Below, one piece after another: positions 24,645 to 44,031 of a DNA stretch of 64,000 nucleotides. Every line of letters starts with the position of its first letter. The first letter of the stretch is position 1. This DNA is from Alphaproteobacteria bacterium (GTDB taxonomy: Bacteria > Pseudomonadota > Alphaproteobacteria > Rickettsiales > UBA8987). The notes beneath the pieces were generated by a model, which saw nothing but the letters and a program-made list of their open reading frames with translations, was not told the origin of the DNA and searched no databases. The position numbers and the translations under genes were made by a program. The DNA is taken from positions 207,868 through 271,867 of the forward strand of contig JAUIFA010000001.1 of NCBI GenBank assembly GCA_030429625.1, read 5' to 3'.

Positions 24645-25103
24645 ATGTATAAAGTACTGATAACCCTTTTAATATTTTTATTTCCAGCCTATGTGTGGGC
24701 GTGTGAAGTCACACCAGAGGAAGAAAGCTTTGATGCAGTGGTACATAAAGCAGATGTGATTTTTTATGGTAAGCCAATTATCATCGGCAAGCGTTATCCT
24801 GAAGAGCTGGCCAGCAAAGACCTTGTTGAAATCACAGGCAAATTCTTAAACGCGCCTTACGAAGTCCAATTTGAAGTGTTAAAAGTTTGGAAAGGTGAAA
24901 TAGCAAGAGATTTCTATCTGATGGACAAAGACGGAGAATGTGGTCATAAGCTGCCAGAAAAGTTAGAGCAGCCAATGCTTGTTTTTGCTAAGTTTGATAA
25001 GGAAGGCCTTAAGATAATGGACATTGGCTCTAAAGAATTTAACGCATTAAGTCAGGCACAGAGAATCGGGTTGCTCGAGTCGCCTATTTGGCAGATGAAT
25101 TAG
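24645..25103 (+). CDS. Exported TIMP/NTR-like protein
   Basis: Signal peptide then mature Cys1; ADVIFYGK, FEVLKVWKG, ECG, MLVFA. Confidence 0.55.
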   Translation: MYKVLITLLIFLFPAYVWACEVTPEEESFDAVVHKADVIFYGKPIIIGKRYPEELASKDLVEITGKFLNAPYEVQFEVLKVWKGEIARDFYLMDKDGECGHKLPEKLEQPMLVFAKFDKEGLKIMDIGSKEFNALSQAQRIGLLESPIWQMN

Positions 25104-26293
25104 CCTCTTCCCCTGTCTTGCTCGAAAAGATGGGTAATTGCTTCGGCTATATTGCGGTCTATTCTTTCTTTTTCGGGAGCAAAACTAACCCGTGCTTCGG
25201 AAGCAATTTTAAAATAAGACAGTACGTCGCCAAGAATTGTTTTAATTGTGGCAAGAGAGCGTATGTCTTCATTCACGCTGATGCGTGCAGCAAATCCTTG
25301 GGCGCCAAGATCAATAGATTTTTTCTCAGCCATTTCATCAAAAGCGTTTGTAACGGATTTCTCTAACGCATTGTAATACGCAATATCGTCGTTAAATCCG
25401 CACTCATTTTTTTTAATCTGAGTTAATTTTTTTGCATAGGCTGCCAGATGGTGCATGTTTGTTACAAACTCACGGGCACTGTCTCCCAGAGTAGAGGCGG
25501 CCAGATCACACAGACCATCCTTAAGTTCATCAATACTCTTCATGGCTACAGCAATTTTGGTAAAACGAGAGCCATAAAATGCGCTCAGCCCGTTAGTAAC
25601 AATTTTCGCCGGCTCACCAAAAAACTCCCCAAGCTTCACTTCTTCAACCTGTGGACGTTGGTGATAGTGATGTACGTTGTCTTGCACGGAAGATAATGCC
25701 ATCAAATCTTTAGAAATTTTACGTACTGTCGGTGATTGTTGTTTGGCTGCAAAGCGTGTCGCACGTTCTTCTTCCAATGCCTCTAAGCTGTCAAATATTC
25801 TATTGGCATCTTCCGGGTGAATAAGTTTTCGTTCCTTTTTAATGGCTTTAATGCAGGAATCACACATTCTGTTAAACAGTGATACAGCATATTGTGCTCC
25901 GTGCGTGCGAGTTACCTCCGTCTGGAATATGGTGTCAGGGGTAACCCTTTTTTTTCCTCCTTTGACTTCTTCCAGCCTGTGTTGGCTGGCTTCAAACCGT
26001 TGCCGATTTTCATCCACATATCGGGCATTACTATTGATATTGCCCTCAGCGTATTTCATCAAACGTCTTTGGAAGCTTTCTATGAGCGCTATTTGCTCTG
26101 CATAATAATTCTCTAATGTCAGCTTTTTACCGTCCAGAGGTTGGTAGTTTCTCACAGGATAGAGCGGGTCAGGTTTTCCTGCATGGCACAGTTTATAGTC
26201 TTTACCGCCCATGGTAATAATATCCCCGGCACGACCATTATGCGTGGGGGTAAAATCATCTTGTATTTTGTCTAAAAAAGAGGACATGACCAA
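25100..26293 (-). CDS. Orphan helical protein (candidate secreted effector)
   Basis: 397-aa ORF; tail EQDRGRG. Confidence 0.7.
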   Translation of the reverse strand: MVMSSFLDKIQDDFTPTHNGRAGDIITMGGKDYKLCHAGKPDPLYPVRNYQPLDGKKLTLENYYAEQIALIESFQRRLMKYAEGNINSNARYVDENRQRFEASQHRLEEVKGGKKRVTPDTIFQTEVTRTHGAQYAVSLFNRMCDSCIKAIKKERKLIHPEDANRIFDSLEALEEERATRFAAKQQSPTVRKISKDLMALSSVQDNVHHYHQRPQVEEVKLGEFFGEPAKIVTNGLSAFYGSRFTKIAVAMKSIDELKDGLCDLAASTLGDSAREFVTNMHHLAAYAKKLTQIKKNECGFNDDIAYYNALEKSVTNAFDEMAEKKSIDLGAQGFAARISVNEDIRSLATIKTILGDVLSYFKIASEARVSFAPEKERIDRNIAEAITHLFEQDRGRG

Positions 26294-26486: not shown

Positions 26487-27578
26487 ATGAGAAATTTTTT
26501 TGCTATATTATTAGTTGTTCTGCTTGTTGCGCTATTCTGGTATTTTGGGCTTGGTGGTACAGAAAATAAGTCACAGCAAAATGGTGGAAACGTGGTAGTA
26601 GACACGTATGTCATAGCAGAATCCCCGGTGTATGACCGTGTGGAGGCGCTGGGGACAACCTATGCGAATGAATCGATTGATATCACTGCCAACACTACCG
26701 AAACCATCAAGAACATCTATTTTGAAGATGGGCAGGAGGTTGCGCAAGGCGATGTGATCGCTGTGTTGGAGCAAGACGAAGAGCAAGCGCAGCTTAAAGC
26801 ATCTCAAGTGCAATTGGCTGAGCATGAGCGTGAATTAGAACGTTTGGCGGGCTTGCTGGCCAATAAAGTCATTTCCAAGCGGGAATATGACGAGCGCAAA
26901 ACTTTGCTGGACATCAACAAACAAAGAATAGAAGAAATCAAGGCACGCATTGGGGAACGCACATTGCGTGCGCCCTTTGATGGTGTGCTGGGTCTAAGGC
27001 GGCTCAGTGTAGGTGCGTTGGTGCGTCCAGGAGATATCATCACCACATTGGACGATATCCGCCAGATCAAACTGGACTTTAACGTACCAGATATTTACCT
27101 TAATAAAATTCATAAAGCTATGCCCATTCAGGCGCACAGTGTGTCTCTTAGAGATCGGTTGTTTGAAGGGGTCATTTCTACCATTGACAGTCGGGTGAAC
27201 CCGATTACGCGTTCGGTGCTGGTGCGGGCGGTCATTGACAACGAAGACAAAATCATCCGTCCGGGGTTATTGATGCAGGTGCTTCTGCTTAAAGACCAGC
27301 GCAAGGCTATTGTGGCGCCGGAAGAGGCAGTGTTTCAGAAGAAGAACAAGCATTATGTGATGTTGTTGGAAGAAGGATCGTCAACAGTGCGCCAGCAAGA
27401 GGTTCATATTGGTATTCGTCGCCCAGGCATTGTGGAAATAACGCAAGGGCTGGAAATAGAGGATCGGGTGGTGATTCGTGGCATACATAAAGTCCGTGAT
27501 GGGCAGGCTGTAGAAGTGAGGAACACCTTGCATGCGGTGGATATTTTGGGCAGTGACTCCGCAGAAGGAGCTAAATAA
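26487..27578 (+). CDS. RND efflux membrane fusion protein
   Basis: N-terminal anchor, lipoyl halves, RAPFDGVLG, IRPGLL. Confidence 0.92.
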   Translation: MRNFFAILLVVLLVALFWYFGLGGTENKSQQNGGNVVVDTYVIAESPVYDRVEALGTTYANESIDITANTTETIKNIYFEDGQEVAQGDVIAVLEQDEEQAQLKASQVQLAEHERELERLAGLLANKVISKREYDERKTLLDINKQRIEEIKARIGERTLRAPFDGVLGLRRLSVGALVRPGDIITTLDDIRQIKLDFNVPDIYLNKIHKAMPIQAHSVSLRDRLFEGVISTIDSRVNPITRSVLVRAVIDNEDKIIRPGLLMQVLLLKDQRKAIVAPEEAVFQKKNKHYVMLLEEGSSTVRQQEVHIGIRRPGIVEITQGLEIEDRVVIRGIHKVRDGQAVEVRNTLHAVDILGSDSAEGAK

Positions 27579-30500
27579 TGTGGCTATCAGATACATCGGT
27601 TCGCCGGCCAGTTCTCGCCGTTGTAGTCAATTTATTGATCATTGCTTTTGGCCTTGTTTCTTTTGGCAAATTGCCGCTGCGCGAATATCCAGACATTGAC
27701 CCGCCGGTAGTGTCTATCGATACCAATTACCGTGGTGCGTCGGCCAGTGTGGTCGAAACCCGTGTCACCGAATTGATTGAGGATCGGGTAGCCGGAGTAG
27801 AGGGGGTTAAAACCATTTCCTCCAGCTCGTCGGACGGACGCTCTCGTATTACCATTGAATTTGATATTGACCGCAATATTGATGACGCTGCTAATGATTT
27901 GCGGGATCGGGTGTCGGGCATTTTGGACAATTTGCCCGAAGAAGCCGATCCGCCAGAAATTGAAAAATCCGATTCTAACGACGATGTGATTATGTGGTTA
28001 AATCTGGCGGGGGAAGGAATGAGCATCATGGAGTTGAGCGATTATGCGCGGCGCTATTTGCAGGATCGTTTCTCTGCGCTTGATGGTGTAGCACGGGTGC
28101 GTGTGGGTGGCGGTCAGGAAATCGCCATGCGTATTTGGTTGGATCGTGACGCTTTGGCGGCGCGTAACTTAACGGCAGAGGACGTTGAAACGGCTTTGCG
28201 TTCAGAAAATGTTGAGCTGCCTGCCGGCTCTATTGAGTCTTCCATGCGTGATTTTACCGTACGCATGGAGCGCAGCTATCAAACCATTGAAGAATTTAAA
28301 AATCTAGTAATCAAACGCGGAGCCGATGGCTACTTGGTGCGTTTGGGTGATGTGGCAGATGTGGAAATTGGGGCGGTGGAAAGCCGTTCTACCCTACGCG
28401 GTAATGGTGTGCCAATGGTGGGTGTGGGCATCATTAAACAATCTCAGGCTAACACGATTGAAGTGGCGCGTTTGGCCAAAGAAGAAATGGCGCGGGTCAA
28501 TAAAACGTTGCCTGCCAATATGGCACTGAAGCAGAGTTACGACACCAGCGTGTTTATTGAAAGCTCGATTGAGGAAGTGTATAAAACACTGTTCATTGCC
28601 GTATTGCTGGTGGTATTGGTGATTTATTGTTTCTTAGGCAATTTTCGAGCCATGCTGGTGCCGGCGGTAACGGTACCCGTATCGCTGATTGGTACGTTTA
28701 TCATTCTTTATGCCTTTGGTTTTACCATTAATTTGTTAACCTTGCTGGCGTTGGTGCTGGCCATCGGTTTGGTGGTGGACGATGCGATTGTGGTCATTGA
28801 AAACATCCACCGCCGTATTGAGATGGGAGAGCCAAGGGTGGTAGCGGCCTATCGTGGTACACGTCAGGTGGGGTTTGCCGTCATTGCTACCACCATTGTG
28901 TTAGTGTCGGTGTTTATGCCCATCACCTTCTTAGAGGGAGATTTGGGCAGGTTGTTTACCGAATTTGCTGTCACTATGAGTGCAGCGGTACTGTTTTCCA
29001 GCTTTGTGGCGTTGACTTTTTCGCCCATGCTTTCGTCTAAAATTCTTGATCGTCATGGCAGCCATAACCGTTTTACCAGTTGGTTGGATAAGAAATTTGA
29101 AGCATTACGTACCGGCTATATCGCCTTTTTGAAAAAAGCCATGAAGCATCCGGTGATGGTGGTGGTGCTGTTGCTGGCTGTTTTTGGCTGCGCGTTTACG
29201 TTGTTTAAACTGGTGCCCAGCGAATATGCTCCCAAAGAAGACAGGGGCGCGTTTTTCTTAATGTTACGTGGGCCGGAAGGCACCTCGTACAACTACATCA
29301 CTCAGCAATTGAATGAGGTGGAAAGACGTTTGACCCCGTTTGTGGAATCAGGCGAATTTGAACGGTTGCTGATGCGTGCCCCACGTAGTTTTGGAGCGGC
29401 CTCGTCGTTTAATGATGGGATTGGAATTGTGGTGTTGAGCCATTGGGACAGTGGCCGTAAACCTATCTGGTATTATGTGAACAAGGTGAGGGAGCTGACC
29501 TCTGACATGCCGGGCATTCAGGTGTTCCCTGTGGTACGGCAGGCGCTGGGGGGCGGCTGGAAAAAACCGGTGCAGTTTGTGTTGGGTGGTCCCACTTACG
29601 ATGAGCTGGCACAGTGGCGTGATATCATGCTGGAAAAGGCCTCAGAAAATAAAAATCTCATTGGGCTGGACCATGATTATCTGGAAACCAAGCCGCAAAT
29701 TGGGCTGACCATACAGCGCAACCGTGCGGGCGATTTGGGCGTGCCGGTGGCAGTAATCAACCGAACACTCGAAAGTATGCTTGGTTCGCGCAACGTCACC
29801 ACCTTTATTGACCGTGGTGAAGAATATGACGTGATTCTGGAGAGCAAGAAAGACCTTAAACAAAGCCCGACCGACATCAGCAATATCTATGTGCGCTCGC
29901 AAACCACCGGGCAGCTGATTCCGCTTTCTAATTTGGTGGAAATCAAAGAATACGCCGATGCCACCTCGCTCAATCGCTACAATCGTATGCGTAGTATCAC
30001 GTTGGAAGCCAATCTTGCTGATGGCTACAGCATGGGCGAGGCGCTCAACTATCTTGAAGGGCTGGTGCGCAGTGAATTGCCGCCGGGTGTCAGCATTGAT
30101 TATAAAGGTGGATCTCTGGATTATATCGAATCGGGCAGTTCTATCTTCTTAATTTTCCTCTTGGCATTGGTGGTGGTGTATCTGGTGTTGGCTGGGCAGT
30201 TTGAAAGTTTTGTGCATCCGTTTATCATCATGATGACCGTACCCCTGGCCATTACGGGGGCGCTGTTTGCCTTGTGGGCGATGGGGCTATCGCTGAATAT
30301 TTACAGCGAGATTGGTCTGATCATCCTCATTGGTTTGGCGGCGAAAAACGGGATTCTGATCGTTGAATTTATCAACCAGTTGCGCGACGAAGGGGTGGAA
30401 TTTACTGAGGCGATTTTAGAAGCTTCCGGCAAACGTCTGCGCCCAATTCTGATGACCGCCATTACCACTGCTATGGGTGCGGTACCACTGATTCTTTCCT

Positions 30501-30688
30501 TTGGGGCTGGGGCAGAAACCCGTTTCGTCATCGGCATAGTGATCTTCGCCGGGGTGATTATCGCCACCGCCTTCACCATTGTGGTTATTCCGGTGATGTA
30601 CCATCTTCTGGCCAAAAACACCACCTCTCCTCATGCCGTTAGCCAACGTCTGGAAAAACTCCTCAAAGAGCACAAACACGAGGTTTAG
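27578..30688 (+). CDS. RND efflux permease (AcrB family)
   Basis: 1036 aa; GLVVDDAIVV, AKNGILIVEF, RLRPILMT. Confidence 0.95.
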   Translation: MWLSDTSVRRPVLAVVVNLLIIAFGLVSFGKLPLREYPDIDPPVVSIDTNYRGASASVVETRVTELIEDRVAGVEGVKTISSSSSDGRSRITIEFDIDRNIDDAANDLRDRVSGILDNLPEEADPPEIEKSDSNDDVIMWLNLAGEGMSIMELSDYARRYLQDRFSALDGVARVRVGGGQEIAMRIWLDRDALAARNLTAEDVETALRSENVELPAGSIESSMRDFTVRMERSYQTIEEFKNLVIKRGADGYLVRLGDVADVEIGAVESRSTLRGNGVPMVGVGIIKQSQANTIEVARLAKEEMARVNKTLPANMALKQSYDTSVFIESSIEEVYKTLFIAVLLVVLVIYCFLGNFRAMLVPAVTVPVSLIGTFIILYAFGFTINLLTLLALVLAIGLVVDDAIVVIENIHRRIEMGEPRVVAAYRGTRQVGFAVIATTIVLVSVFMPITFLEGDLGRLFTEFAVTMSAAVLFSSFVALTFSPMLSSKILDRHGSHNRFTSWLDKKFEALRTGYIAFLKKAMKHPVMVVVLLLAVFGCAFTLFKLVPSEYAPKEDRGAFFLMLRGPEGTSYNYITQQLNEVERRLTPFVESGEFERLLMRAPRSFGAASSFNDGIGIVVLSHWDSGRKPIWYYVNKVRELTSDMPGIQVFPVVRQALGGGWKKPVQFVLGGPTYDELAQWRDIMLEKASENKNLIGLDHDYLETKPQIGLTIQRNRAGDLGVPVAVINRTLESMLGSRNVTTFIDRGEEYDVILESKKDLKQSPTDISNIYVRSQTTGQLIPLSNLVEIKEYADATSLNRYNRMRSITLEANLADGYSMGEALNYLEGLVRSELPPGVSIDYKGGSLDYIESGSSIFLIFLLALVVVYLVLAGQFESFVHPFIIMMTVPLAITGALFALWAMGLSLNIYSEIGLIILIGLAAKNGILIVEFINQLRDEGVEFTEAILEASGKRLRPILMTAITTAMGAVPLILSFGAGAETRFVIGIVIFAGVIIATAFTIVVIPVMYHLLAKNTTSPHAVSQRLEKLLKEHKHEV

Positions 30689-30968: not shown

Positions 30969-31709
30969 TTAGCCGAAGCTTTTGACCAGATTCTCGCTGA
31001 GCATATGCCAGCCATCAATCAACACAAAGAAAATAATCTTAAACGGCAGGGAAATCATTACCGGCGGTAGCATCATCATCCCCATCGACATCAAGGTGGA
31101 CGCCACCATCATGTCAATGATCAGGAAGGGAATGAAGACCAGAAAGCCAATCTCGAAGGCGCGCTTCAACTCACTGATCATAAAGGCAGGTACCAGCACT
31201 TTGTAGGGCAGGTCTTCAGGTTTTTCAACCATGTCTGTGCCCGACAGCTCCATAAACAGTGCAACATCATTCTCGTTTACCTGCCCGCGCATAAATTCAT
31301 GAAAAGGTGCTGCGGTTCTTTCCATCGCGGTTTTTTCATCAATTTGTTCATTAATAAGCGGCTCAATACCATCATTGTAGGCGGCCTCAAACGTAGGGGT
31401 CATGATAAAAGCCGTGAGGAACAATGCCAGACTGATCAATACCGAGTTAGGCGGCGTTTGCTGAATTCCCATCGCGCTACGCAGCAAAGACAACACCACA
31501 ATGATGCGTGTGAAGGAGGTCACCATCATCAGGATCGAAGGCGCAAGGCTCAGAATGGTCAGTAAAATAACCAGACGCATGATTTGCCCGGTGGCTGAGC
31601 CGCCAATTTCTCCGCCTAAATCCACATTGATGGTTTGTGCTGCCGCAGGATGGGCATAGAAAAACACAGTAGCAAGAAGCAATAGGCCAGAGAAGAAAAT
31701 GCGTTTCAT
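30969..31709 (-). CDS. fliP: Flagellar export gate protein FliP
   Basis: TSFTRIIVV, QQTPPN, PAFMISELKRAF, GMMMLPP. Confidence 0.97.
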   Translation of the reverse strand: MKRIFFSGLLLLATVFFYAHPAAAQTINVDLGGEIGGSATGQIMRLVILLTILSLAPSILMMVTSFTRIIVVLSLLRSAMGIQQTPPNSVLISLALFLTAFIMTPTFEAAYNDGIEPLINEQIDEKTAMERTAAPFHEFMRGQVNENDVALFMELSGTDMVEKPEDLPYKVLVPAFMISELKRAFEIGFLVFIPFLIIDMMVASTLMSMGMMMLPPVMISLPFKIIFFVLIDGWHMLSENLVKSFG

Positions 31710-34217: not shown

Positions 34218-35915
34218 ATGAACAGTCTTATTGAAAAAGCGCCGGATTATTCCGGCATTTCTACAAAATTACAGTCAAACAGTCTAAACGAACAAGCAGC
34301 GTTGGAAGAAAAGATAAATCAAACGTTTTTGCTTGCGGTGGATCACCATCAACATATGCGCCTGAAAGAGGCGGAATATTTATACCGCCGGATATTGGAA
34401 ATTCGCCCCAATCTGGTGGAATGTCTGAATAACCTCATCACATTGCTTATTACCAAAGAAGAGGGTACAGATTTGAATGAGTTGGGGCGCATGTGTTTGC
34501 ATGCACTTTCTTTAGAGCCGAACAACGCAAAACTGCACGATAAATTTGCCGCTGCGCTCACCCTTAACGGTCAGCCCGAAGAAGCCGAAAAAGAATATAA
34601 GAAGGCCATTGAGCTTGACCCTAATGACATGAATATTCGTAGCAACTACAGTAAGTTGTTAGGGGAGATTTTAAAGTCGGAAGAAGCCATCAAGCAGATA
34701 GACATTGCCCTGAAGAAGGAGGTGACCCCCAAATTTATTATGAACAAAGGTGTGGCGCTCATTGCCCTTGGGCGGTTGGAGGAAGCAGAAGAATGTTTTC
34801 GGAAGGCCATTGGGCTGGAGCAGTCCAATGCGGAGGCGTGGCGCAACATTACCTCGATCCTAAAATATAAAACCAGTGATAACAAGGATGCTTCAGAAAT
34901 CAGAAAGCTTTTGGAAACAGGGAAATTATCTCCACAACAAAAAGCCTGCCTGTATTTTTCATTGGGCAAGATACATGACGACAGCAAAGAATATGATCAG
35001 GCATTTGAAAATTATAAAAAAGGTAATGAGCTGATTTTTGATAATGCCCAAAAAGGAAACAAGTTTTTTTACGACCGCAAGAGCCATGATGCGTTCTGCA
35101 AAGGGGTCATTAAGGGGTTTGATAAAAAGTTTTGGCAGGAGTTTAAAAAGAGTGGCTATAAGGGCAATGATTCACGCATGCCGATATTTGTGGTGGGAAT
35201 GCCGCGTTCGGGTACGACGCTGACAGAAAAAATCATCGCGCAACATCCGCAGGCATCGGGTGCGGGTGAGCTAACAGAGATGCGCAATACCATAAAATTA
35301 ATGACACCAGCGTTAAATAAGTTTGCTCAAACCGGTCAGCCTTTTAGCGAGGAGGAGCGGCACTATTTTGACCGTTTGGCAGAAAAATATTTGGCGCGTT
35401 TGGGGCGTGATGCGGAAGACGGCGTGGTGCGTGTGGTAGACAAGCTGCCGGGCAATTTCTTGCATCTTGGGCATATTGCTATTTTGTTCCCCAACGCAAA
35501 GATCATTCATTGCAACAGAAACCCCCTCGATACCTGTTTGTCTAACTTTTTTCAGTATTTTGCTTCGGGCATTGGGTTTTCGTTTAATCTTGAGGCAATG
35601 GCGCATTATTATGGGCATTATAAAAGACTTATGGAGCATTATAACCAGTCCGGTCTTCCATTGGAGATTCTGGACGTACATTACGAAGAACTAACTTCGG
35701 ATACAGATACCGGCGTGAAGAAGATTTTGGACTTTATCGGTTTGGATTTTGATGAAAACTGTTTGAAACCGCATGAATCTTCTAGCGGTGCACATACGGC
35801 CAGCGCGTGGCAGATCAAGCAGCCCATTTATAAAACTTCGCAGGAGCGTTGGAAAAGGTACGAGTCGCAGCTTCAGCCATTAATGTCTGCGTTGGAAAAA
35901 GAAGGGGTGCTGTGA
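34218..35915 (+). CDS. TPR + sulfotransferase
   Basis: TPRs; VGMPRSGTTL, DKLPGN, RNPLDTCLS, TASAWQ. Confidence 0.9.
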   Translation: MNSLIEKAPDYSGISTKLQSNSLNEQAALEEKINQTFLLAVDHHQHMRLKEAEYLYRRILEIRPNLVECLNNLITLLITKEEGTDLNELGRMCLHALSLEPNNAKLHDKFAAALTLNGQPEEAEKEYKKAIELDPNDMNIRSNYSKLLGEILKSEEAIKQIDIALKKEVTPKFIMNKGVALIALGRLEEAEECFRKAIGLEQSNAEAWRNITSILKYKTSDNKDASEIRKLLETGKLSPQQKACLYFSLGKIHDDSKEYDQAFENYKKGNELIFDNAQKGNKFFYDRKSHDAFCKGVIKGFDKKFWQEFKKSGYKGNDSRMPIFVVGMPRSGTTLTEKIIAQHPQASGAGELTEMRNTIKLMTPALNKFAQTGQPFSEEERHYFDRLAEKYLARLGRDAEDGVVRVVDKLPGNFLHLGHIAILFPNAKIIHCNRNPLDTCLSNFFQYFASGIGFSFNLEAMAHYYGHYKRLMEHYNQSGLPLEILDVHYEELTSDTDTGVKKILDFIGLDFDENCLKPHESSSGAHTASAWQIKQPIYKTSQERWKRYESQLQPLMSALEKEGVL

Positions 35916-37540
35916 TGAAGAATGGTTTTGGAGGCGGACAGCAAAGTCAGGTGAGTGTGAAAACCAAGGAGCAGGAGGTTGCAGAAGCCTTTGCTGTGGC
36001 ACATAAATATCATCTTTCGGGGGATTTGCAAAAAGCCGAGGCGATCTATCGAAATATTTTTGAGGCAGATCCAAACCATGTCGACACGATCAACAATCTT
36101 TCGGTAATTTTAATTGACCGCAAAGAGTTTAATGATGCGAATTTGCTGCTGGAGCATGGCATGCAAATTGCACCAGACAATCATCGGATTGTTGAGAATT
36201 TTGGCTATAATCTGGCAGCTCAGGGCAGAGAAGAAGCGGCACTGCCCTATTATGAAAAGGCGTTAACGATAGAACCTAAATCCCAGCAAACCTATGTCAT
36301 GTATGGTAAATTATTATATTTGTTGGGGAAATACGATCAGGCGACGGAGCAATATAAGAAAGCGCTAAAGATAAATCCTAAGAATATTGCGGCTATGGAG
36401 AATCTAGCGGCCACCGATTTTGTAATGGGTAATTTTGATGAATCGATAGATTTATATGAGAAAGTCATAGAGTTAAACCCAAAATGTGGGCGATTATATC
36501 GTACCATTACCCAATCTAAGAAGTTCAAATCAGCAGACGACCGTCATGTAAAAATGATAGAGGGCTTTGATATCGATGGCGTGGATGCAGAAAGTCGATC
36601 GCATATCTTTTTTGCTAAAGGAAAAATATACAGTGATCTTAAAGAATACGATAAGTCGTTTGAATATTACAAAAAAGGCAACGATATAAAGCAGAAGCTT
36701 ATTCCCTACGATCAATATAATTTTGACCGTTTCTTTACGCAAGCCAAGGAGCTTTACACCAAAGCATTTTGGGACAACAACAAGTTTTCTGGATCATCTT
36801 CAGAAGTGCCGGTGTTTGTGGTGGGGATGCCACGTTCTGGCACCACATTGACGGAGCAAATCATTGCTCGCCATCCTGATGTGGACGGGGCAGGGGAGCT
36901 GCCGTTTATTACAAGAAATGCTGCGGCAATTGCCAGTTTAATGAAAGATCCAAAAATTACACAGCAAAATGCGGGTGTGATTGTTCCGCCTATTCTAAAG
37001 AAATTTGCTCAGGACTATCTGCACCGACTAACGCTGAATGTAAAAGATAAAAATGTGAAACACGTAGTAGATAAACAGCCCACCAATTTCCAGTATTTAT
37101 CAGAAATTGCGCTGCTTTTTCCTAAGGCTAAGATTGTACATTGTAAGCGCAATGCGTTGGATACGTGTATTTCCAATTACTTCCAATATTTTATTGACGG
37201 TAACACGTTTGCTAATAATCTGGAAAGCTTAGCGCATTATTTTAATGCTTATGAAAATATTATGGAGTTTTATAAAGAGAATTTACCGTTGGAAATATAC
37301 GATCTTGAATATGAAAAATTGACCAGCAGTCCGGAAGAGGAGGCAAGAAAATTGCTTGAGTTCATTGGGTTGGAATTTGACGAAAGATGTATCCATCCCG
37401 AGGAAAGTAAGCGGGCGGCCAGTACGGCCAGCGCGTGGCAGGTCAAGCAGCCCATTTACCAAACATCGCAGCAGCGTTGGCGGCGCTATGAAGAGCATCT
37501 TCAGCCATTAATAAAAGCACTAAATAACCCACCTGTTTGA
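35915..37540 (+). CDS. TPR + sulfotransferase (tandem paralogue)
   Basis: TPRs; VGMPRSGTTL, DKQPTN, RNALDTCIS; TGATG overlap with the previous gene. Confidence 0.9.
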   Translation: MKNGFGGGQQSQVSVKTKEQEVAEAFAVAHKYHLSGDLQKAEAIYRNIFEADPNHVDTINNLSVILIDRKEFNDANLLLEHGMQIAPDNHRIVENFGYNLAAQGREEAALPYYEKALTIEPKSQQTYVMYGKLLYLLGKYDQATEQYKKALKINPKNIAAMENLAATDFVMGNFDESIDLYEKVIELNPKCGRLYRTITQSKKFKSADDRHVKMIEGFDIDGVDAESRSHIFFAKGKIYSDLKEYDKSFEYYKKGNDIKQKLIPYDQYNFDRFFTQAKELYTKAFWDNNKFSGSSSEVPVFVVGMPRSGTTLTEQIIARHPDVDGAGELPFITRNAAAIASLMKDPKITQQNAGVIVPPILKKFAQDYLHRLTLNVKDKNVKHVVDKQPTNFQYLSEIALLFPKAKIVHCKRNALDTCISNYFQYFIDGNTFANNLESLAHYFNAYENIMEFYKENLPLEIYDLEYEKLTSSPEEEARKLLEFIGLEFDERCIHPEESKRAASTASAWQVKQPIYQTSQQRWRRYEEHLQPLIKALNNPPV

Positions 37541-37669: not shown

Positions 37670-39916
37670 ATGGTTGGTATTATATCTAACAGTGCGGCGT
37701 TGTTCGCACAGCGGAATCTTGGCGTTGCTGCTGCGGATTCTGAATCTTCAATTGCGAAACTTTCAAGTGGTAATAGAATTATCCGTGCTTCGGATGATGT
37801 TGCGGGCCTAGCGGTCGGTACGTCTTTGGCCACTACGGTTTCCACACTTAAAACGGTACTTGGTACAACAAACCAAGCATCTTCATTGCTTCAGATCGCC
37901 GATGGTGGTTTGAAAAACATTGCAGACATTCTTGCTCGTCAGAAATCACTGGCAGTATCAGCGAACTCCGGTTCACTGTCTGATACTGAACGTGCGTTCC
38001 TACAACAAGAATTTGCTGCTCTATCTACTGAGATTGACCGTATCGTAGATTCTACAGAATTTAACGGTATTAAACTTCTGGACGGTTCTGTGTCTGGTAA
38101 TGCAAATCTGACTACTGCAGAAGGCACGACAACAGAATATTACAGTCTTGATGATAAAACACACTATAGTGTTAATGGTGTGGGTTCAACCGGTACAGTA
38201 GATTCTATTTCTATTCAGGAAGGCGTTACTACTGCGGCGGTTCAAGGTCGTTTCAGCTTTGCGTTAACCATTACCGACAATACGTCTAGTGATGGTTTGT
38301 TCCAGTTCAACAGTGCTGCGGGTACAACCGTATCTGTGACCATTAATAGTGCTAGTGCTGCTACGGAAGCCGGTGATATTGTTGCTGCTCTTAATGCGGT
38401 TAACACTACCACTACTTCAGCAGCCTATGGTTGGCAGTTCTCTATTGAGGGTGCTTCTACCATCGTTGCCGAATATATTGGTAACTCTTTAACAGCCGCA
38501 CAAGTTAACGCTGCAACGGTTGAAATTACTGATGGTGGTACGACTACCATTGATATTAACCTCAACGGCGGCGGTAACCTTGCTAGTGGTGCGACTACGG
38601 CTGTAAACACCAATGCTGGTACGGCTTCTGGTACGCAAGCGGCTGTGGATGCGGTGTATGACAGCACAACTACTGTGTTTAGTTCTACGCTACAGGGTGC
38701 TATCACCAATATTGAGGCTCAGTTTGTTGCTGGTGCTCAAACAGGTGTGGGTACTTATACCAATAACACTGTGATTTTCACAGCTACTATTGGTGGTGTA
38801 AGCTATGTGTCTGATGCGATTGAACTTGCAGGAACTACTTACGTTCAAGCAACCGATACCGTAACATTGGGTACAACATTACTTGATAACACAGTGATTA
38901 ACTTCAGAGCGTCTGGTTCTACTGCAACAACGGCTCAGCATATCCAAATGACCATCAATGGTAATCAAACCATTGCAAGTCAGGCCAATGCAACCACTGT
39001 TGCTTCTACCATTGAATCAGAATTCACGACTGACAGTGTTACTATTTACCAAAGTCGTGAAGTTTCTAGCTTCAGTACAACCGCTATCGTAGGTACTGTG
39101 CTTGATGGTATTACTGCAGATAACGTGTTCTTGAAAGTGGATGATTTCAGTACCACAGGTACTTGGGGTGATATTAGCTCGTTCAATGTAGATCGTGTTG
39201 CGGGCACCATCACTGTTTCTATCAACGGTGTTGAATATCAAACTGACTTGAATGCATTCGGTGGTACTCATGTTGATAATACTTCATTCAACAATGATGC
39301 TGACCTTGTGTTCTCAAGTACGGATACAACGGATGCGCGTACCTTTACGCTTGATCTTGATGGTACAAGTGGTGGTGCTGGTCTGGATTTAACCACTATC
39401 AGCTATGGTACTGCTGCGGAAGAAGCTAATCTTGAAGCGGCATTAAACGCTGCCTTTGGCGTAGGTTCTAGTGAGGCTCTTACCTTCCAAGTAGGCTCTG
39501 ATGCAACAGATACTATTGGTGTATCTATCTCTAGTGCGGCCACAAGCGGTCTGTATGTAGATGCTGACGGTACTGCTGTATCTCTAAGCATTGCCACTGC
39601 GGGTGAAGCTTCATCTGCTAATGGTGGTGACGGTACAGGTTCAATTTTGGCCTCAAACGTTATTGACCGTGCGATCAGTAGTGTAACAAGTCTGCGTGCA
39701 GACGTTGGTGCGTTACAATCTAGGTTTAACTTTGCTGCGTCTAACATCAGTTCTGCAATTCAGAACACCGATGCTGCACGTAGTAGCTTCCTAGATGTGG
39801 ATGTTGCAGAGGAATCTACAACATTTGCAACTGCACAGGTTCGTTTGCAAGCGTCTATTTCAGTGCTTGCACAAGCAAACCAAATTCCACAAAACCTACT
39901 AAAACTTATCGGTTAG
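37670..39916 (+). CDS. fliC: Flagellin, 748 aa, with a large Ser/Thr-rich outer region
   Basis: KLSSGNRI...DDVAGLA, EIDRIVDSTEFNG, RADVGALQSRF, VLAQANQ; AGGAG RBS. Confidence 0.95.
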   Translation: MVGIISNSAALFAQRNLGVAAADSESSIAKLSSGNRIIRASDDVAGLAVGTSLATTVSTLKTVLGTTNQASSLLQIADGGLKNIADILARQKSLAVSANSGSLSDTERAFLQQEFAALSTEIDRIVDSTEFNGIKLLDGSVSGNANLTTAEGTTTEYYSLDDKTHYSVNGVGSTGTVDSISIQEGVTTAAVQGRFSFALTITDNTSSDGLFQFNSAAGTTVSVTINSASAATEAGDIVAALNAVNTTTTSAAYGWQFSIEGASTIVAEYIGNSLTAAQVNAATVEITDGGTTTIDINLNGGGNLASGATTAVNTNAGTASGTQAAVDAVYDSTTTVFSSTLQGAITNIEAQFVAGAQTGVGTYTNNTVIFTATIGGVSYVSDAIELAGTTYVQATDTVTLGTTLLDNTVINFRASGSTATTAQHIQMTINGNQTIASQANATTVASTIESEFTTDSVTIYQSREVSSFSTTAIVGTVLDGITADNVFLKVDDFSTTGTWGDISSFNVDRVAGTITVSINGVEYQTDLNAFGGTHVDNTSFNNDADLVFSSTDTTDARTFTLDLDGTSGGAGLDLTTISYGTAAEEANLEAALNAAFGVGSSEALTFQVGSDATDTIGVSISSAATSGLYVDADGTAVSLSIATAGEASSANGGDGTGSILASNVIDRAISSVTSLRADVGALQSRFNFAASNISSAIQNTDAARSSFLDVDVAEESTTFATAQVRLQASISVLAQANQIPQNLLKLIG

Positions 39917-39934
39917 TGGAAAGTATCTTTATGG

Positions 39935-39957
39935 TGGTGGGGCTTCGGCCTCACCAT
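39935..39957 (+). terminator. Hairpin after flagellin
   Basis: ggtggggc-ttcg-gcctcacc; weak U-tract. Confidence 0.6.
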
Positions 39958-40031
39958 CTATAAGATAATTTAATATTTTTCTATATTTCTGGAGAGGCAA
40001 TATAGAATTTTAGAACAAAAGGAGAGTAGTC

Positions 40032-40433
40032 ATGGAAAACTTTTCATTACCCAATACGGCACAGGCTTCACAGGCTTCGCAGGCTTCACAAACAGCGGCT
40101 GCGGCTCCAAGAACAGAAGTTCAGCATGCGGAAATTCAAGCGCAGAGAATTGTAAGCACAAAAGAAGCTGAGCAAACTCCATTGGATGCTCGTGACCAAG
40201 ATCAGGCGCGTTTTGATGCGGTTAAAAAGGCAGCTAAAAGAGTGGTTTCAACCAACCCGCTTTCGCCTAGTTCTGCGCGCTTTACGATTTATCGTGACAC
40301 AAATGTGTCGGGTGTGGTGTACGTAACACGTTTTACTAACATTTTTGATGGTAAGGTAACTTTAGTGCGTGATGAGCAGCTCTTAGCAGACTTTGCCAAA
40401 GAGCAAGGTACAATTCTTGATGGGGTTGTATAA
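40032..40433 (+). CDS. FlaG-like protein
   Basis: Located between fliC and fliD; low-complexity N-terminus; C-terminal GTILD. Confidence 0.5.
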   Translation: MENFSLPNTAQASQASQASQTAAAAPRTEVQHAEIQAQRIVSTKEAEQTPLDARDQDQARFDAVKKAAKRVVSTNPLSPSSARFTIYRDTNVSGVVYVTRFTNIFDGKVTLVRDEQLLADFAKEQGTILDGVV

Positions 40434-40471
40434 AAATATCAATAAAAGAGAGAGGACAATTTTGTTATCTT

Positions 40472-40486
40472 TGGCACGTTTTGTGC
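40472..40486 (+). promoter_or_regulatory. Sigma-54 -24/-12 promoter for fliD-fliS
   Basis: TGGCACGTTTTGTGC has GG-N10-GC spacing, 40 bp before the fliD ATG. Confidence 0.7.
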
Positions 40487-40526
40487 GTATTTTTAAGTAG
40501 CAATATTGTTATTGGGAGTATGAGTT

Positions 40527-43502
40527 ATGACAATTAATTTAGGGAGCATAGTGAATCTCAATGGTCGCTCCGTTGGTAGTGGGATATCGTCAGGGCTTGA
40601 CACTGAAGCTATCATTAATGCCTTAACTGAGGCAAGAAGAGCGCCGGCCGCACGTCTTGAAGACACAATCGAACTTAATCAGTCAAGAATCACGGCTTTT
40701 TCTTCTCTAAAAACCATTGTTGAAGGTTTGCGTTCCGCGGCAGATTTTTTACGTGCGCCGCCAGGCTTTAACAATGCATCTGATAATATTTTTATGTATC
40801 GGACAAGTTCTCTTTCTTCCAGCCTGAGTTCTATCTCTAACTATCTCGGGGTAACAGCTTCAGCAGGCGCTGGTATTGGTGATTATGATATTGAAATTGG
40901 TCAGGTGGCGCTAAACCGTCAACAAAGAACCGGCTCTTTTTCTAGTCAATCTTCGGATATTGTCGATGATGCAACAGGGGCAATTACTTCATTAGATTTC
41001 GGAGAAAATGAGCCAGTTGTAGACGATACTATCACCATTGGCGGTGCAACTTACACATTTGTGGAAAATGGAACAGACAGTGATGGAACCAGCATCGAAC
41101 TGGGAACAACATTAACAGAAACCTTGGCCAATATTAAATCCCATCTTTCCAGTACTAATGGGCAAGCCGTCCATGCGGATGTGGATAATTTTACCTATAG
41201 TGTTTCAGGCACGTCGATCATTGCCACCTCTAAAACAGTGGGTGGGGCAGACGATGCTATTGATTTTTCAGCTTCCATTGCGGCGGGTGCACCAACAGTA
41301 GGGGACACAGCAGGTTCATACGGCAACAGTGCGGGCATGTTTTCGGCTGGAATATTTCAATTTGCTTCTACCCTGGCGGTAGATGTTGCCTCTACCACAG
41401 ACACAAGTATTAATCTCACTTCATCGGACTATACCGTTAATGGTGCGGTGGGAAGCTCTGTCTTGTCAACGGGTATTTCCAACATCACCGTTGATGGGGA
41501 TGAACCTAATGGGTATAAAGGGTTACTAAGAACGATCACAGGTATTTCTGGTTCGTATGATGTGGATGCGGACACATTAACGCTTTCGGTTAGCATTAAC
41601 GGCAGAACATTTACATCCAATGAAATTAGTACCGCAGCCGGAGCAGGTAGTGATAGTATTGCCGCTGGGCAGACTATTACGTTTACGGACGGAGACGAAA
41701 CTTCGGCTACCAGCTTTGATGTGGTAGTCGGTGCAGAATATTTGATTGATGATACGGTAGAAAATGCGGACGCATTTGTGACTTCACTGGAAGCGGATTT
41801 GGCCTCACAAACTATTCTTCAGGATCGCGCGCTTTCCAATGTAAACACAGACAATATTCCACCGGCATCACCTCTTTATGGATTGACCTCCTCGGATGTG
41901 ATATACAGAACTGGGGATTATTCAAGCATTGGCCTAGCAGGAGACATCTCTGGATTTACCGTCACACGCAACGGCTCAAACGATACGGATATTTCTGTAA
42001 CAATAAACGATGAAGTGTTCACTGTCACAGGGCTTAGCGATACGTTAAATGGTAATATTACCCTTACAGGAAGTAACGGTGAGCAGCTCTCTCTTAATTT
42101 GGGAGATGCTGGTGTATCTTTTGATATTGCTGATGATGCAGCTGCGACGGAGCTTCAGAACGCATTGGATTTTGCTTTTGGCACAAAAAGCCTGACCCAC
42201 ATAGAAATAGAAAATGACTTTACGTTAGTAGATATCGCTGCGGCAATCAATGCGCAATCCTCTGCAAGCGGAGTTTCTGCTAGCATCGTGCAAGTCAGTG
42301 ATACGGATTTCCGTTTGACTTTGCAGGCTACGGATGTGGGTTTGGACAACTCTTATGAGATTGTTGATTATAACCAAGTGTGGCATGCTGGCACAGGCGA
42401 TGGCAGTGATGGGGTAGAAATGATCGCCGTACAATCTGCTCAAGATTCTTTCATCAGTGTTAATGGTATCGTGGTACAGAGGTCTTCAAATTCTATTGAT
42501 GACGTTATTGATAACATTACGTTTAGTATTCATGAGGTTACCGGTTCAGCGTTTACCAGCCAGTCTACCTATGATGCGTTAGGATCTCACACAGAGATTG
42601 TGGCGACCATTGCCAATGATACTGAAACAGTTGAATCTGCGGTTGTTAATTTTATCAATGCGTATAATGAATTTAGGGTGTTTGCAGCAACACAAACATT
42701 CCGTGATGCACAGGGTAATTTAGGGGAAGATGCGGTATTGGGCGATAACACGACCTTATCGACCTTAATCAATCAAATTTCAGGTGAAGTTTCCTCTGCT
42801 ATCAGCGGTGTATCTGACTCAGACTTTGCTACGTTAGGCGCTATTGGTATTACTTTGACGGATTATGATGGCGATGATGAAAATCCAGAGGTAAGCAATA
42901 TCCTAACCTATGACCCAGATAAGCTGTCTGCGGCATTGGCAAATAATTACGATGAGGTTCGTGAAATTTTTGAAATGTCCTTTTCTGCTAGCTCCAGTAA
43001 CTTGGCACTGTATGAAAGTAACAATAGTGCTACATTAACAGACTATCAGATAGACATTGACACGAGTCGTGAATCGGGTGATGAAGTGCGTATCTTGGAT
43101 TCAGATGGTGACTTCTTGTTCAATGCAACCCTCTCCAGTCTTGGTGGCAGTTATTATATTAGTGGGGATAGTGGAACAACACTTTCAGGGCTTGGCTTTA
43201 TCTATACCGGCGATGGAGATGATGTTATCACGGTTGGGTCGTCCTACGGTATTGCTGATCGTCTTTACAATATCATGGATGATTATGCTGAAGATGATGG
43301 TGTGATTGATACGACCGTAGCAGATATTGTGGATGAAAATGAAGACCTGGAGGTTGAAGTCACGGATATTGACTATGCGGTGGATCAGTATCGTCTACAA
43401 CTCATTGATCAATATACAGCACTTGAATCGGCTATCACTCAGGTCAATACGTTGCTGCAATTTATCGAATCACAGGCGAATTTGGCCGCGTCGGGTAACT
43501 AA
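40527..43502 (+). CDS. fliD: Flagellar filament cap FliD, 991 aa with large insertions
   Basis: GISSGLDTEAIINAL, SSNSIDDVI, VNFINAYN, LGAIGIT, QYTALE. Confidence 0.92.
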   Translation: MTINLGSIVNLNGRSVGSGISSGLDTEAIINALTEARRAPAARLEDTIELNQSRITAFSSLKTIVEGLRSAADFLRAPPGFNNASDNIFMYRTSSLSSSLSSISNYLGVTASAGAGIGDYDIEIGQVALNRQQRTGSFSSQSSDIVDDATGAITSLDFGENEPVVDDTITIGGATYTFVENGTDSDGTSIELGTTLTETLANIKSHLSSTNGQAVHADVDNFTYSVSGTSIIATSKTVGGADDAIDFSASIAAGAPTVGDTAGSYGNSAGMFSAGIFQFASTLAVDVASTTDTSINLTSSDYTVNGAVGSSVLSTGISNITVDGDEPNGYKGLLRTITGISGSYDVDADTLTLSVSINGRTFTSNEISTAAGAGSDSIAAGQTITFTDGDETSATSFDVVVGAEYLIDDTVENADAFVTSLEADLASQTILQDRALSNVNTDNIPPASPLYGLTSSDVIYRTGDYSSIGLAGDISGFTVTRNGSNDTDISVTINDEVFTVTGLSDTLNGNITLTGSNGEQLSLNLGDAGVSFDIADDAAATELQNALDFAFGTKSLTHIEIENDFTLVDIAAAINAQSSASGVSASIVQVSDTDFRLTLQATDVGLDNSYEIVDYNQVWHAGTGDGSDGVEMIAVQSAQDSFISVNGIVVQRSSNSIDDVIDNITFSIHEVTGSAFTSQSTYDALGSHTEIVATIANDTETVESAVVNFINAYNEFRVFAATQTFRDAQGNLGEDAVLGDNTTLSTLINQISGEVSSAISGVSDSDFATLGAIGITLTDYDGDDENPEVSNILTYDPDKLSAALANNYDEVREIFEMSFSASSSNLALYESNNSATLTDYQIDIDTSRESGDEVRILDSDGDFLFNATLSSLGGSYYISGDSGTTLSGLGFIYTGDGDDVITVGSSYGIADRLYNIMDDYAEDDGVIDTTVADIVDENEDLEVEVTDIDYAVDQYRLQLIDQYTALESAITQVNTLLQFIESQANLAASGN

Positions 43503-43527
43503 TAAAAACAAACAAGGGGTAGAAAAT

Positions 43528-44031
43528 ATGACGTATGATAAACAGTGTCAAGCATACACAAATAACAGCCACATGGTGCGTAAAACCAAGCAGGTTGTGA
43601 TGTTGTATGAGGGCGCGATACGTTTTCTACAACAAGCAAAAGCCGCAATAGAAGAGCAAAGAATAGAAGACCGTTTTAATATGCTGACCAAGGCATCGGA
43701 TGTGGTCACGGGTCTTCAGTTGAGTTTGGATAAGGAAAATGGTGGGGATATTGCCAACCTTCTGGATGATTATTATTCAGGTCTAGACATGCGCATTATG
43801 TCACTGCATCAGAGTAATGACCTGACCATGCTGGATATGTGTGTGCGTCATCTGAAAATGATGAAAGAAGCATGGGAAGAAATAGACCATAATCATGAAG
43901 AGGACGATGCTGGGTCGTTTAATGATTATGTTACTGTGGGTGAGAAAAATGATTCTGAGATTGATATGTCGGATCCTGAAGTTTCCCAGAAAATAATGAG
44001 TGTGGCAGACAGTATTAATGTCAGAGCCTAG
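43528..44031 (+). CDS. fliS: Flagellin chaperone FliS
   Basis: VMLYEGAIRFL, L.LSLD..NGGDIANLL..YY, AWEEI. Confidence 0.92.
   Translation: MTYDKQCQAYTNNSHMVRKTKQVVMLYEGAIRFLQQAKAAIEEQRIEDRFNMLTKASDVVTGLQLSLDKENGGDIANLLDDYYSGLDMRIMSLHQSNDLTMLDMCVRHLKMMKEAWEEIDHNHEEDDAGSFNDYVTVGEKNDSEIDMSDPEVSQKIMSVADSINVRA

What the first reader, a model, noticed from the sequence alone, without database searches (positions are those of the whole stretch)
38144..42185. Filament cap FliD contains a colinear copy of the flagellin outer domain
A ~260-aa FliD insert (41412-42185) aligns in order with the flagellin variable region (38144-39460). FliC/FliD pairs: HYSVNG/DYTVNG; TVIFTATIGGVSYVSDAI/TLTLSVSINGRTFTSNEI; NATTVASTIESEF/NADAFVTSLEADL; TIYQSREVSSFSTTAI/TILQDRALSNVNTDNI; LDGITADNVFLKVDDFSTTGTWGDISSFNVDR/LYGLTSSDVIYRTGDYSSIGLAGDISGFTVTR; ITVSINGVEY/ISVTINDEVF; EANLEAALNAAFG/ATELQNALDFAFG. 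Canonical FliD is about half this size and lacks such a module. The cap may template or continue an outer lattice, or present the same adhesive or modified surface. The divergence suggests an old, maintained duplication.
Basis: seen in the sequence. Interest (0 to 1): 0.85.

Follow-up and report, generated by a model that had tools for sequence, protein, structure and literature searches.

The report
Flagellin and cap share outer domain
The flagellar filament protein and the cap protein encoded next to it in this uncultured alphaproteobacterium carry the same unnamed surface domain of about 255 residues; this is a real, old, lineage-restricted case of flagellar genes sharing outer domains, which is a known kind of event.

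Summary
FliD residues 296-553 (window 41412-42185) and flagellin residues 314-597 (window 38609-39460, not from 38144) are homologous along their whole length. Profile-profile probability is 99.9%, E 9e-32, over 237 columns. A profile of FliD copies finds only FliD and flagellin among 13,109 open frames of the genome. Shuffled sequence never scores.

The domain has no Pfam family and no clear solved fold. It is modelled as two lobes, each a sheet followed by a helix. It lies beside the canonical FliD head rather than replacing it.

It is almost confined to one alphaproteobacterial order. In 14 relatives where both genes could be read, both carry it (12 clearly, 2 weakly). FliD copies form a single clade, so there was one old transfer and no later homogenisation.

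Two relatives have the domain in flagellin but not in FliD, so the cap copy is probably not needed for capping.

Domain sharing between FliD, FlgK and flagellin is already in print (Postel 2016; Nat Commun 2024). This is therefore a new member of a known kind. Its function is untested; I favour an accessory surface domain shown on both shaft and tip.

The parts
37670..39916 (+). Flagellin gene (748 aa)
   Evidence: Pfam Flagellin_N 5-140 (1.1e-28) and Flagellin_C 664-747 (9.9e-23). It is the only flagellin found in the genome by tblastn.
38090..38608 (+). Flagellin residues 141-313: a first outer region not related to the shared module
   Evidence: No significant hit to either module HMM. No Pfam hit at E<0.05. 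No BLASTP match covering at least 60% of it in the relatives' loci.
38609..39460 (+). Flagellin copy of the shared module (residues 314-597)
   Evidence: FliD-module HMM E 1.1e-19, HMM positions 7-256. hhalign E 9e-32. AF2 model from a flagellin-only alignment: pLDDT 76.5, pTM 0.64.
40032..40433 (+). Small conserved ORF between fliC and fliD (133 aa; FlaG-like by position only)
   Evidence: No Pfam family. phmmer finds homologues at the same position in loci of 13 relatives.
40527..43502 (+). fliD, filament cap gene (991 aa)
   Evidence: Pfam FliD_N 22-128, Flagellin_IN 566-603, FliD_C 638-974. phmmer matches solved FliD chains 5h5v, 5xlj and 5h5w.
40989..41330 (+). FliD residues 155-268: a small module shared with FlgK
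   Evidence: 41.5% identity over 118 aa to FlgK 462-579, E 6e-19 pairwise and 1.5e-15 against the genome. A second, weaker FlgK copy lies at 584-677.
41412..42185 (+). FliD copy of the shared module (residues 296-553)
   Evidence: 33 relatives among 1.84 billion representative proteins. Flagellin-module HMM E 4.4e-26. AF2 model pLDDT 88.3, pTM 0.77.
42177..42566 (+). FliD residues ~551-680: the canonical D3 (Flagellin_IN part) and D2 head sequence
   Evidence: phmmer to E. coli, Serratia and Salmonella-type FliD D2-D3 chains at E 1e-9 to 6e-7; the confident alignment starts at about residue 551.
43327..44031 (+). fliS (flagellin chaperone); the true start is probably downstream of the fliD stop codon
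   Evidence: Pfam FliS, 1.7e-26, residues 75-186 of the ORF.
34218..37540 (+). Two TPR-sulfotransferase genes directly upstream of flagellin; candidate flagellin modifiers (inference)
   Evidence: Pfam Sulfotransfer_3 5e-42 and 2e-41, plus TPR repeats. Homologues lie directly upstream of flagellin in 3 relatives: L029, L035, L036.

Best explanation
Shown: flagellin and the cap protein FliD each carry one copy of an unnamed domain of about 255 residues.
- It is acidic and rich in Ser/Thr.
- It is modelled as two lobes, each a beta-sheet closed by a helix, and the lobes are probably an internal duplication.
- In flagellin it sits in the outer (variable) region between the two halves of D1.
- In FliD it is an extra insert in the head, just before the canonical D3/D2 sequence.
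- FliD also carries a second, smaller insert that it shares with FlgK.

Shown by the tree and by distribution: the domain passed once between the adjacent fliC and fliD genes in an ancestor of this alphaproteobacterial family or order. Both copies have since been kept and have diverged independently. The flagellin copy occurs in more genomes than the FliD copy.

Inferred: it is an accessory, solvent-exposed outer domain. In the filament it forms part of the outer layer. On the pentameric or hexameric cap it projects from the rim of the head plate, so the tip presents the same surface as the shaft. That surface may also be a common substrate for the TPR-containing modifying enzymes encoded beside the flagellin gene. 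It is probably not needed for the capping and chaperoning reaction itself.
For: Homology:
- HMM E 1.1e-19 in one direction and 4.4e-26 in the other.
- hhalign E 9e-32 over 237 columns.
- Shuffle control.
- Q and R of a Q-x-R motif are kept in 30/30 and 29/30 copies of both proteins.

Same predicted architecture, from independent alignments:
- The order of strands and helices matches.
- 20 of the 50 entries listed by the wide structure search are common to both models, including FlgK 4ut1_A at the same residues.

The module is an extra insert: canonical D3/D2 lies at 551-677, and G001's FliD of 599 aa lacks the module.

One old transfer: the 15 FliD copies form one clade (SH-aLRT 99) and copies do not cluster by genome.

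Maintained:
- Both genes carry it in 12 relatives clearly and in 2 weakly or partly.
- The FliD copy is about as conserved as the FliD core.

Not essential for capping: G001 and G010 have the module in their flagellins but not in FliD.

Internal duplication of the lobes: hhalign probability 75%, E 2.4e-5.

Surface character and possible modification:
- 25-28% Ser+Thr; 30-37 acidic against 5-6 basic residues.
- A TPR-GT41 gene and three TPR-sulfotransferase genes lie in the window. Sulfotransferase homologues sit next to flagellin in 3 relatives.
- In Caulobacter, FlmG uses an N-terminal flagellin-binding domain to glycosylate flagellins (PMC7591256, abstract read).
Against: - No experiment or structure shows where the module sits in the cap or the filament. 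Exposure is inferred from the insertion points in known flagellin and FliD architecture.
- No modification was shown, and FliD as a substrate is pure inference.
- Retention in both genes across relatives reflects one shared ancestor, so it is not independent evidence of functional coupling.
- G001 and G010 are draft genomes of uncultured organisms. Whether their flagella are functional is unknown.
- The tree is unrooted, so the direction (flagellin to FliD) rests only on the wider distribution of the flagellin copy.
- The two models could not be superposed directly with the tools at hand.
Confidence: 0.6

Rival explanations
1. Template or lattice continuation. The cap's copy contacts the outer domain of the incoming or topmost flagellins. 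It guides their folding or packing, so that the outer layer of the filament is seeded from the cap.
For: The cap and the filament carry the same domain in 12 relatives clearly and 2 weakly. The FliD copy is as conserved as the FliD core. The template idea is in print for P. aeruginosa Head 2 and FliC (PMC5072837, discussion passage read).
Against: G001 (FliD 599 aa) and G010 (FliD 707 aa) lack the FliD copy while their flagellins keep the module. The two lineages of copies do not co-evolve by genome, and the window's copies are only 23.6% identical.
Confidence: 0.2
2. Tip adhesin or ligand-binding head. The extra FliD domains serve attachment to particles, hosts or polymers at the flagellar tip, as has been proposed for the enlarged heads of some pathogens' FliD. 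The resemblance to flagellin only reflects where the domain was borrowed from.
For: FliD heads with extra domains exist: H. pylori has D4 and D5, discussed as related to its role in infection (review PMC8306008, passage read). This FliD has two separate inserts. Some relatives carry 2-3 tandem module copies.
Against: No lectin, adhesin or other binding family was detected in the module. No clear solved fold was found. The same domain coats the whole filament, so it is not specific to the tip.
Confidence: 0.1
3. Neutral passenger. The module was copied into fliD by recombination between neighbouring genes and persists without function.
For: It has been lost, or was never gained, in FliD of G001 and G010. 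Domain shuffling among flagellar genes is described as a general process (PMC11532411, discussion passage read).
Against: It is kept intact in FliD of 12 of 17 genomes of the same family, plus 3 other families. Its conservation is close to that of the FliD core, and several core residues are invariant.
Confidence: 0.09
4. Chance or compositional similarity between two Ser/Thr/Gly-rich variable regions.
For: Both regions are compositionally biased. Plain Smith-Waterman against shuffles gives only z 3.8. HMMER reports a large bias term for the hit.
Against: hhalign E 9e-32. Reciprocal HMM hits. 0 of 500 shuffles exceed -0.7 bits against 80.7 for the real sequence. No other ORF of the genome scores.
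Confidence: 0.01

Closest known systems
P. aeruginosa FliD Head 2 (D3) versus the P. aeruginosa FliC outer domain (Postel et al. 2016, eLife, PMC5072837; passages read)
   Same: A head domain of the cap resembles the outer domain of the flagellin it caps.
Geovibrio thiophilus flagellin D4/D5 related to FliD D2, and D2 with a fold found in hook-associated proteins (Nat Commun 2024, PMC11532411; two passages read; its supplementary figure was not seen)
   Same: Flagellin outer domains are built from domains also found in other flagellar proteins. That paper explains this by recombination among flagellar genes.
   Different: It concerns a different domain and a different lineage. There the FliD part is the canonical D2. 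Here the shared unit is a lineage-specific insert present in both proteins of the same genome, with a traceable single origin.
Helicobacter pylori FliD with extra head domains D4 and D5 (review PMC8306008, passage read)
   Same: The cap is enlarged by additional domains in the head region.
   Different: H. pylori D4/D5 are described as having folds like D2/D3 of FliD itself. They are not described as a copy of the flagellin outer domain.
Earlier notes of this scan on other genomes (e1-4704157, e1-3307636): flagellin and cap sharing a cassette of 200-260 residues
   Same: The same kind of observation, reaching the same verdict (real homology, a known idea).
   Different: They concern other genomes.

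Membership tests
Flagellin (FliC/FlaA family) | N-terminal and C-terminal helical D0/D1 regions (Pfam PF00669, PF00700) flanking a variable outer region | tested here: met
   PF00669 1.1e-28 (residues 5-140) and PF00700 9.9e-23 (residues 664-747), both above the curated cut-offs.
FliD / HAP2 filament cap | FliD_N (PF02465) and FliD_C (PF07195) regions | tested here: met
   PF02465 6.1e-14 and PF07195 3.9e-31, both above the cut-offs.
FliD / HAP2 filament cap | Canonical D2-D3 head sequence between the leg helices | tested here: met
   phmmer to solved D2-D3 chains 5xlj_A (1.1e-9), 5h5w_A (8.9e-9) and 5h5t_A (6.4e-7); the confident alignment covers FliD residues ~551-677.
Flagellin_IN motif domain (Pfam PF07196) | Match of the shared module to the PF07196 profile | tested here: not met
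   PF07196 matches FliD 566-603, outside the module. The module alone gives no PF07196 hit at E<=10. hhalign of each lobe against 28 D3-IN regions gives probability <1%.
Canonical FliD D3 / P. aeruginosa-type flagellin outer domain fold (Postel 2016) | Structural similarity of the module to solved FliD D2-D3 or to the flagellin outer domain | tested here: inconclusive
DUF7601 / Gram-positive T-antigen pilin domain | Profile-level similarity to DUF7601 repeats | tested here: not met
   Single-sequence leads only: P0037 at 2.6e-4, 8f70_A at 0.011, Pfam at E 0.88. The module HMMs give no hit to P0037, and hhalign probability is <1%.
Outer domains shared among flagellar axial proteins (the kind described in PMC11532411) | The same domain present in the variable region of two or more axial proteins, with sequence or structure evidence of common origin | tested here: met
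   Flagellin and FliD: hhalign E 9e-32. FliD and FlgK small module: 41.5% identity, E 6e-19.

The most novel reading that the evidence does not exclude
The cap's copy of the flagellin outer domain docks onto, or nucleates, the filament's outer-domain layer. The cap would then chaperone not only the helical core but also the packing of the outer sheath. The module-less caps of G001 and G010 would be secondary simplifications with altered filament surfaces.
Probability: 0.15. Interest if true: 0.7.

Novelty: new member of a known kind. Interest (0 to 1): 0.35.

Why it matters
How flagellin outer domains arise, and whether the cap has to match them, is an open topic in flagellar structure. This lineage offers a clean natural series:
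- one domain, recognisable by sequence;
- present in the flagellin of every flagellated family member that was read;
- present in FliD of most, but absent from FliD in two;
- duplicated in tandem in some flagellins and caps.

Such a series makes the question "does the cap need the filament's outer domain?" testable by structure or by domain deletion. It also defines an unannotated domain family (no Pfam family, no clear solved fold) for annotation. It does not reveal a new kind of system.

Tried and rejected
- **The module elsewhere in this genome:** only FliD and flagellin score among 13,109 six-frame ORFs. FlgK (checked by name) is not among the hits; FlgL and FlgE were not looked at by name.
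- **Relation of the lobes to the canonical D3/Flagellin_IN region, or to the small FlgK-type module:** hhalign probabilities 0.3-8.7%.
- **DUF7601 / pilin lead:** rejected. P0036 (1330 aa, mixed low-complexity Pfam hits) was treated as spurious.
- **Sequence search of solved structures with the module:** no credible hit with the single sequence and none with the profile.
- **Foldseek against the PDB with both models:** no match at E<=0.001; the best TM-scores are about 0.1.
- **ESM Atlas look-up:** best score 0.80, uninformative.
- **Complex prediction of the FliD module with the flagellin module:** the tool returned "no answer", score 0.00, controls not run. This says nothing either way.
- **The search for related loci:** with the module alignment it failed for lack of conserved stretches. 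With the single module it found no relative in genome contigs.
- **Earlier notes of the scan for this place and this sequence:** nothing.
- **Direct superposition of the two AF2 models:** not possible with the tools at hand.

Full report
**What is there.**
- The window carries the gene run fliC (37670-39916, 748 aa), a small conserved ORF (40032-40433), fliD (40527-43502, 991 aa) and fliS.
- The genome is a 1.84-Mb, 12-contig, 99.7%-complete assembly. It belongs to an uncultured alphaproteobacterium: its aspartokinase is at most 71% identical to MAGs labelled Rickettsiales, Alphaproteobacteria or Rhodospirillaceae.
- It has a single flagellin gene.

**Is the similarity real?**

Pairwise evidence alone is modest:
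- BLASTP gives one 71-residue segment, 35% identical, E 1e-5.
- By tblastn against the whole genome, this is the best non-self match, at E 0.004-0.011.
- Smith-Waterman on the central regions scores 172, against 119.2 +/- 13.8 for 300 shuffles.

Profiles settle the question:
- A search of 1.84 billion representative proteins with FliD 296-553 found 33 proteins. By their termini, 28 are FliD, 2 are flagellins (P0035, P0039) and 3 are unclassified or spurious.
- An HMM of the 30 FliD copies, run against all 13,109 six-frame ORFs of the genome, hits FliD (1.2e-80) and flagellin (1.1e-19, HMM positions 7-256 of 257). Nothing else scores better than E 2.8.
- An HMM built only from flagellin copies of other genomes hits the window's FliD at 4.4e-26.
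- hhalign of 15 FliD copies (A1) against 16 flagellin copies (A2) gives probability 99.87%, E 9e-32, 237 columns.
- The real flagellin segment scores 80.7 bits. 500 shuffles reach at most -0.7, and the reversed sequence scores -20.3.

The flagellin copy is residues 314-597 (window 38609-39460).

**Anatomy.**
- No Pfam family covers the module.
- AlphaFold models were built from separate alignments. The FliD copy has pLDDT 88.3 and pTM 0.77; the flagellin copy has pLDDT 76.5 and pTM 0.64.
- Both models show the same order of elements: two lobes, each a run of strands closed by a helix.
- The two lobes align to each other (hhalign probability 75%, E 2.4e-5), which suggests an internal duplication.
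- Foldseek finds no solved relative.
- Across 30 copies from both proteins, the Q of a Q-x-R motif is kept in 30/30 and the R in 29/30, and several Gly and aromatic positions are kept.
- The module is acidic and 25-28% Ser+Thr.
- In FliD the canonical D3/D2 head sequence lies at about residues 551-677, immediately after the module. The module is therefore an additional insert.
- FliD 155-268 is a second insert. It is 41.5% identical to one of two tandem copies in the 1056-aa FlgK encoded just upstream of the window.

**Distribution and history.**
- With the FliD copy as query, 12 of 17 genomes of the same family and 3 of 24 other families of the order match.
- Only one further weak hit (4.2e-4) was found among 300 genomes sampled across the class.
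- I read the flagellin gene next to fliD in 14 relatives. All carry the module: 12 clearly and 2 (G030, G040) weakly or partly. Three of the flagellins have two tandem copies.
- Two further relatives, G001 (FliD 599 aa) and G010 (FliD 707 aa), have the module in their flagellins but not in FliD.
- In G009 and G012 neither gene was found. In G003 only a partial flagellin was found.
- No genome had the module in FliD only.
- In a tree of 33 copies, the 15 FliD copies form one clade (SH-aLRT 99). Copies never pair by genome. This indicates one old transfer and no later homogenisation.
- The FliD copy is about as conserved as the FliD core: median identity to relatives is 36% against 38-42%. The flagellin copy is much less conserved than its core: 29% against 55-62% (these are counts per locus, and some genomes are represented twice).

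**How it most likely works.**

Shown: homology, insertion points, single origin and retention.

Inferred:
- The module is an accessory, exposed outer domain.
- It forms part of the filament's outer layer and projects from the cap's head, so the tip carries the same surface as the shaft.
- That surface may be a common substrate for the TPR-GT41 and TPR-sulfotransferase enzymes encoded nearby. This rests on analogy with FlmG (PMC7591256, abstract).
- Because two relatives cap module-bearing flagellins with module-less FliD, I rate an obligatory template or lattice role as less likely (0.2).
- The complex prediction gave no verdict.

**Comparison with what is known.**
- Postel et al. 2016 (PMC5072837, passages read) showed that P. 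aeruginosa FliD Head 2 resembles the FliC outer domain and that Head 1 resembles FlgK. They also voiced the template idea.
- The 2024 Nat Commun survey (PMC11532411, two passages read; supplement not seen) relates a flagellin outer domain to FliD D2, and attributes this to recombination among flagellar genes.
- H. pylori FliD has extra head domains (PMC8306008, passage read).
- Earlier notes of this scan report similar cassettes in other genomes.

The case here is therefore a new, unnamed domain family in a known kind of event, with unusually strong sequence evidence and a useful natural series.

**Verdict.** Novelty: a new member of a known kind. Interest: 0.35.

Noticed in passing
L002:8215-11385 (G000:C5:204214-207384, just upstream of the window) and window 40989-41330: FlgK is 1056 aa, about twice the usual size. 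It carries two tandem copies of a module of about 110 residues. One copy is 41.5% identical to FliD 155-268, so this FliD is a mosaic of inserts shared with both FlgK and flagellin. The module has no Pfam family.
   Followed up: partly
window 2202-4046, 23106-24641, 34218-35915, 35849-37540: One TPR-GT41 glycosyltransferase gene and three TPR-sulfotransferase genes lie in the flagellar region, two of them directly upstream of flagellin. Sulfotransferase homologues also lie directly upstream of flagellin in three relatives (L029, L035, L036). This may be a flagellin glycosylation and sulfation system; nothing was tested.
   Followed up: partly
window 40032-40433: A 133-aa ORF lies between fliC and fliD. 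It has no Pfam match but is conserved at the same position in 13 relatives. It is FlaG-like by position only.
   Followed up: partly
window 38090-38608: Flagellin residues 141-313 form a further outer region. It has no Pfam family, no relation to the shared module, and no match in the relatives' loci that were read.
   Followed up: partly
L018, L026, L027 (flagellins of G004, G007, G013); P0007-P0010, P0015, P0018, P0019 (FliD): The module occurs in two tandem copies in some flagellins and in two to three copies in some FliD proteins of 1114-1243 aa. The domain therefore also expands within genes.
   Followed up: partly
window 42438-43448 (FliD residues 638-974): The FliD_C match spreads 235 profile positions over 337 residues, so the C-terminal leg region holds about 100 extra residues.
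   Followed up: no
window 26487-30688 and 30969-31709: An RND efflux pair (HlyD-type adaptor and AcrB-type pump) sits between flagellar genes. fliP lies on the minus strand next to it.
   Followed up: no
window 1075-2247 and 25100-26293: Two ORFs of 390 and 397 aa in the flagellar neighbourhood have no Pfam family at E<=1e-4.
   Followed up: no
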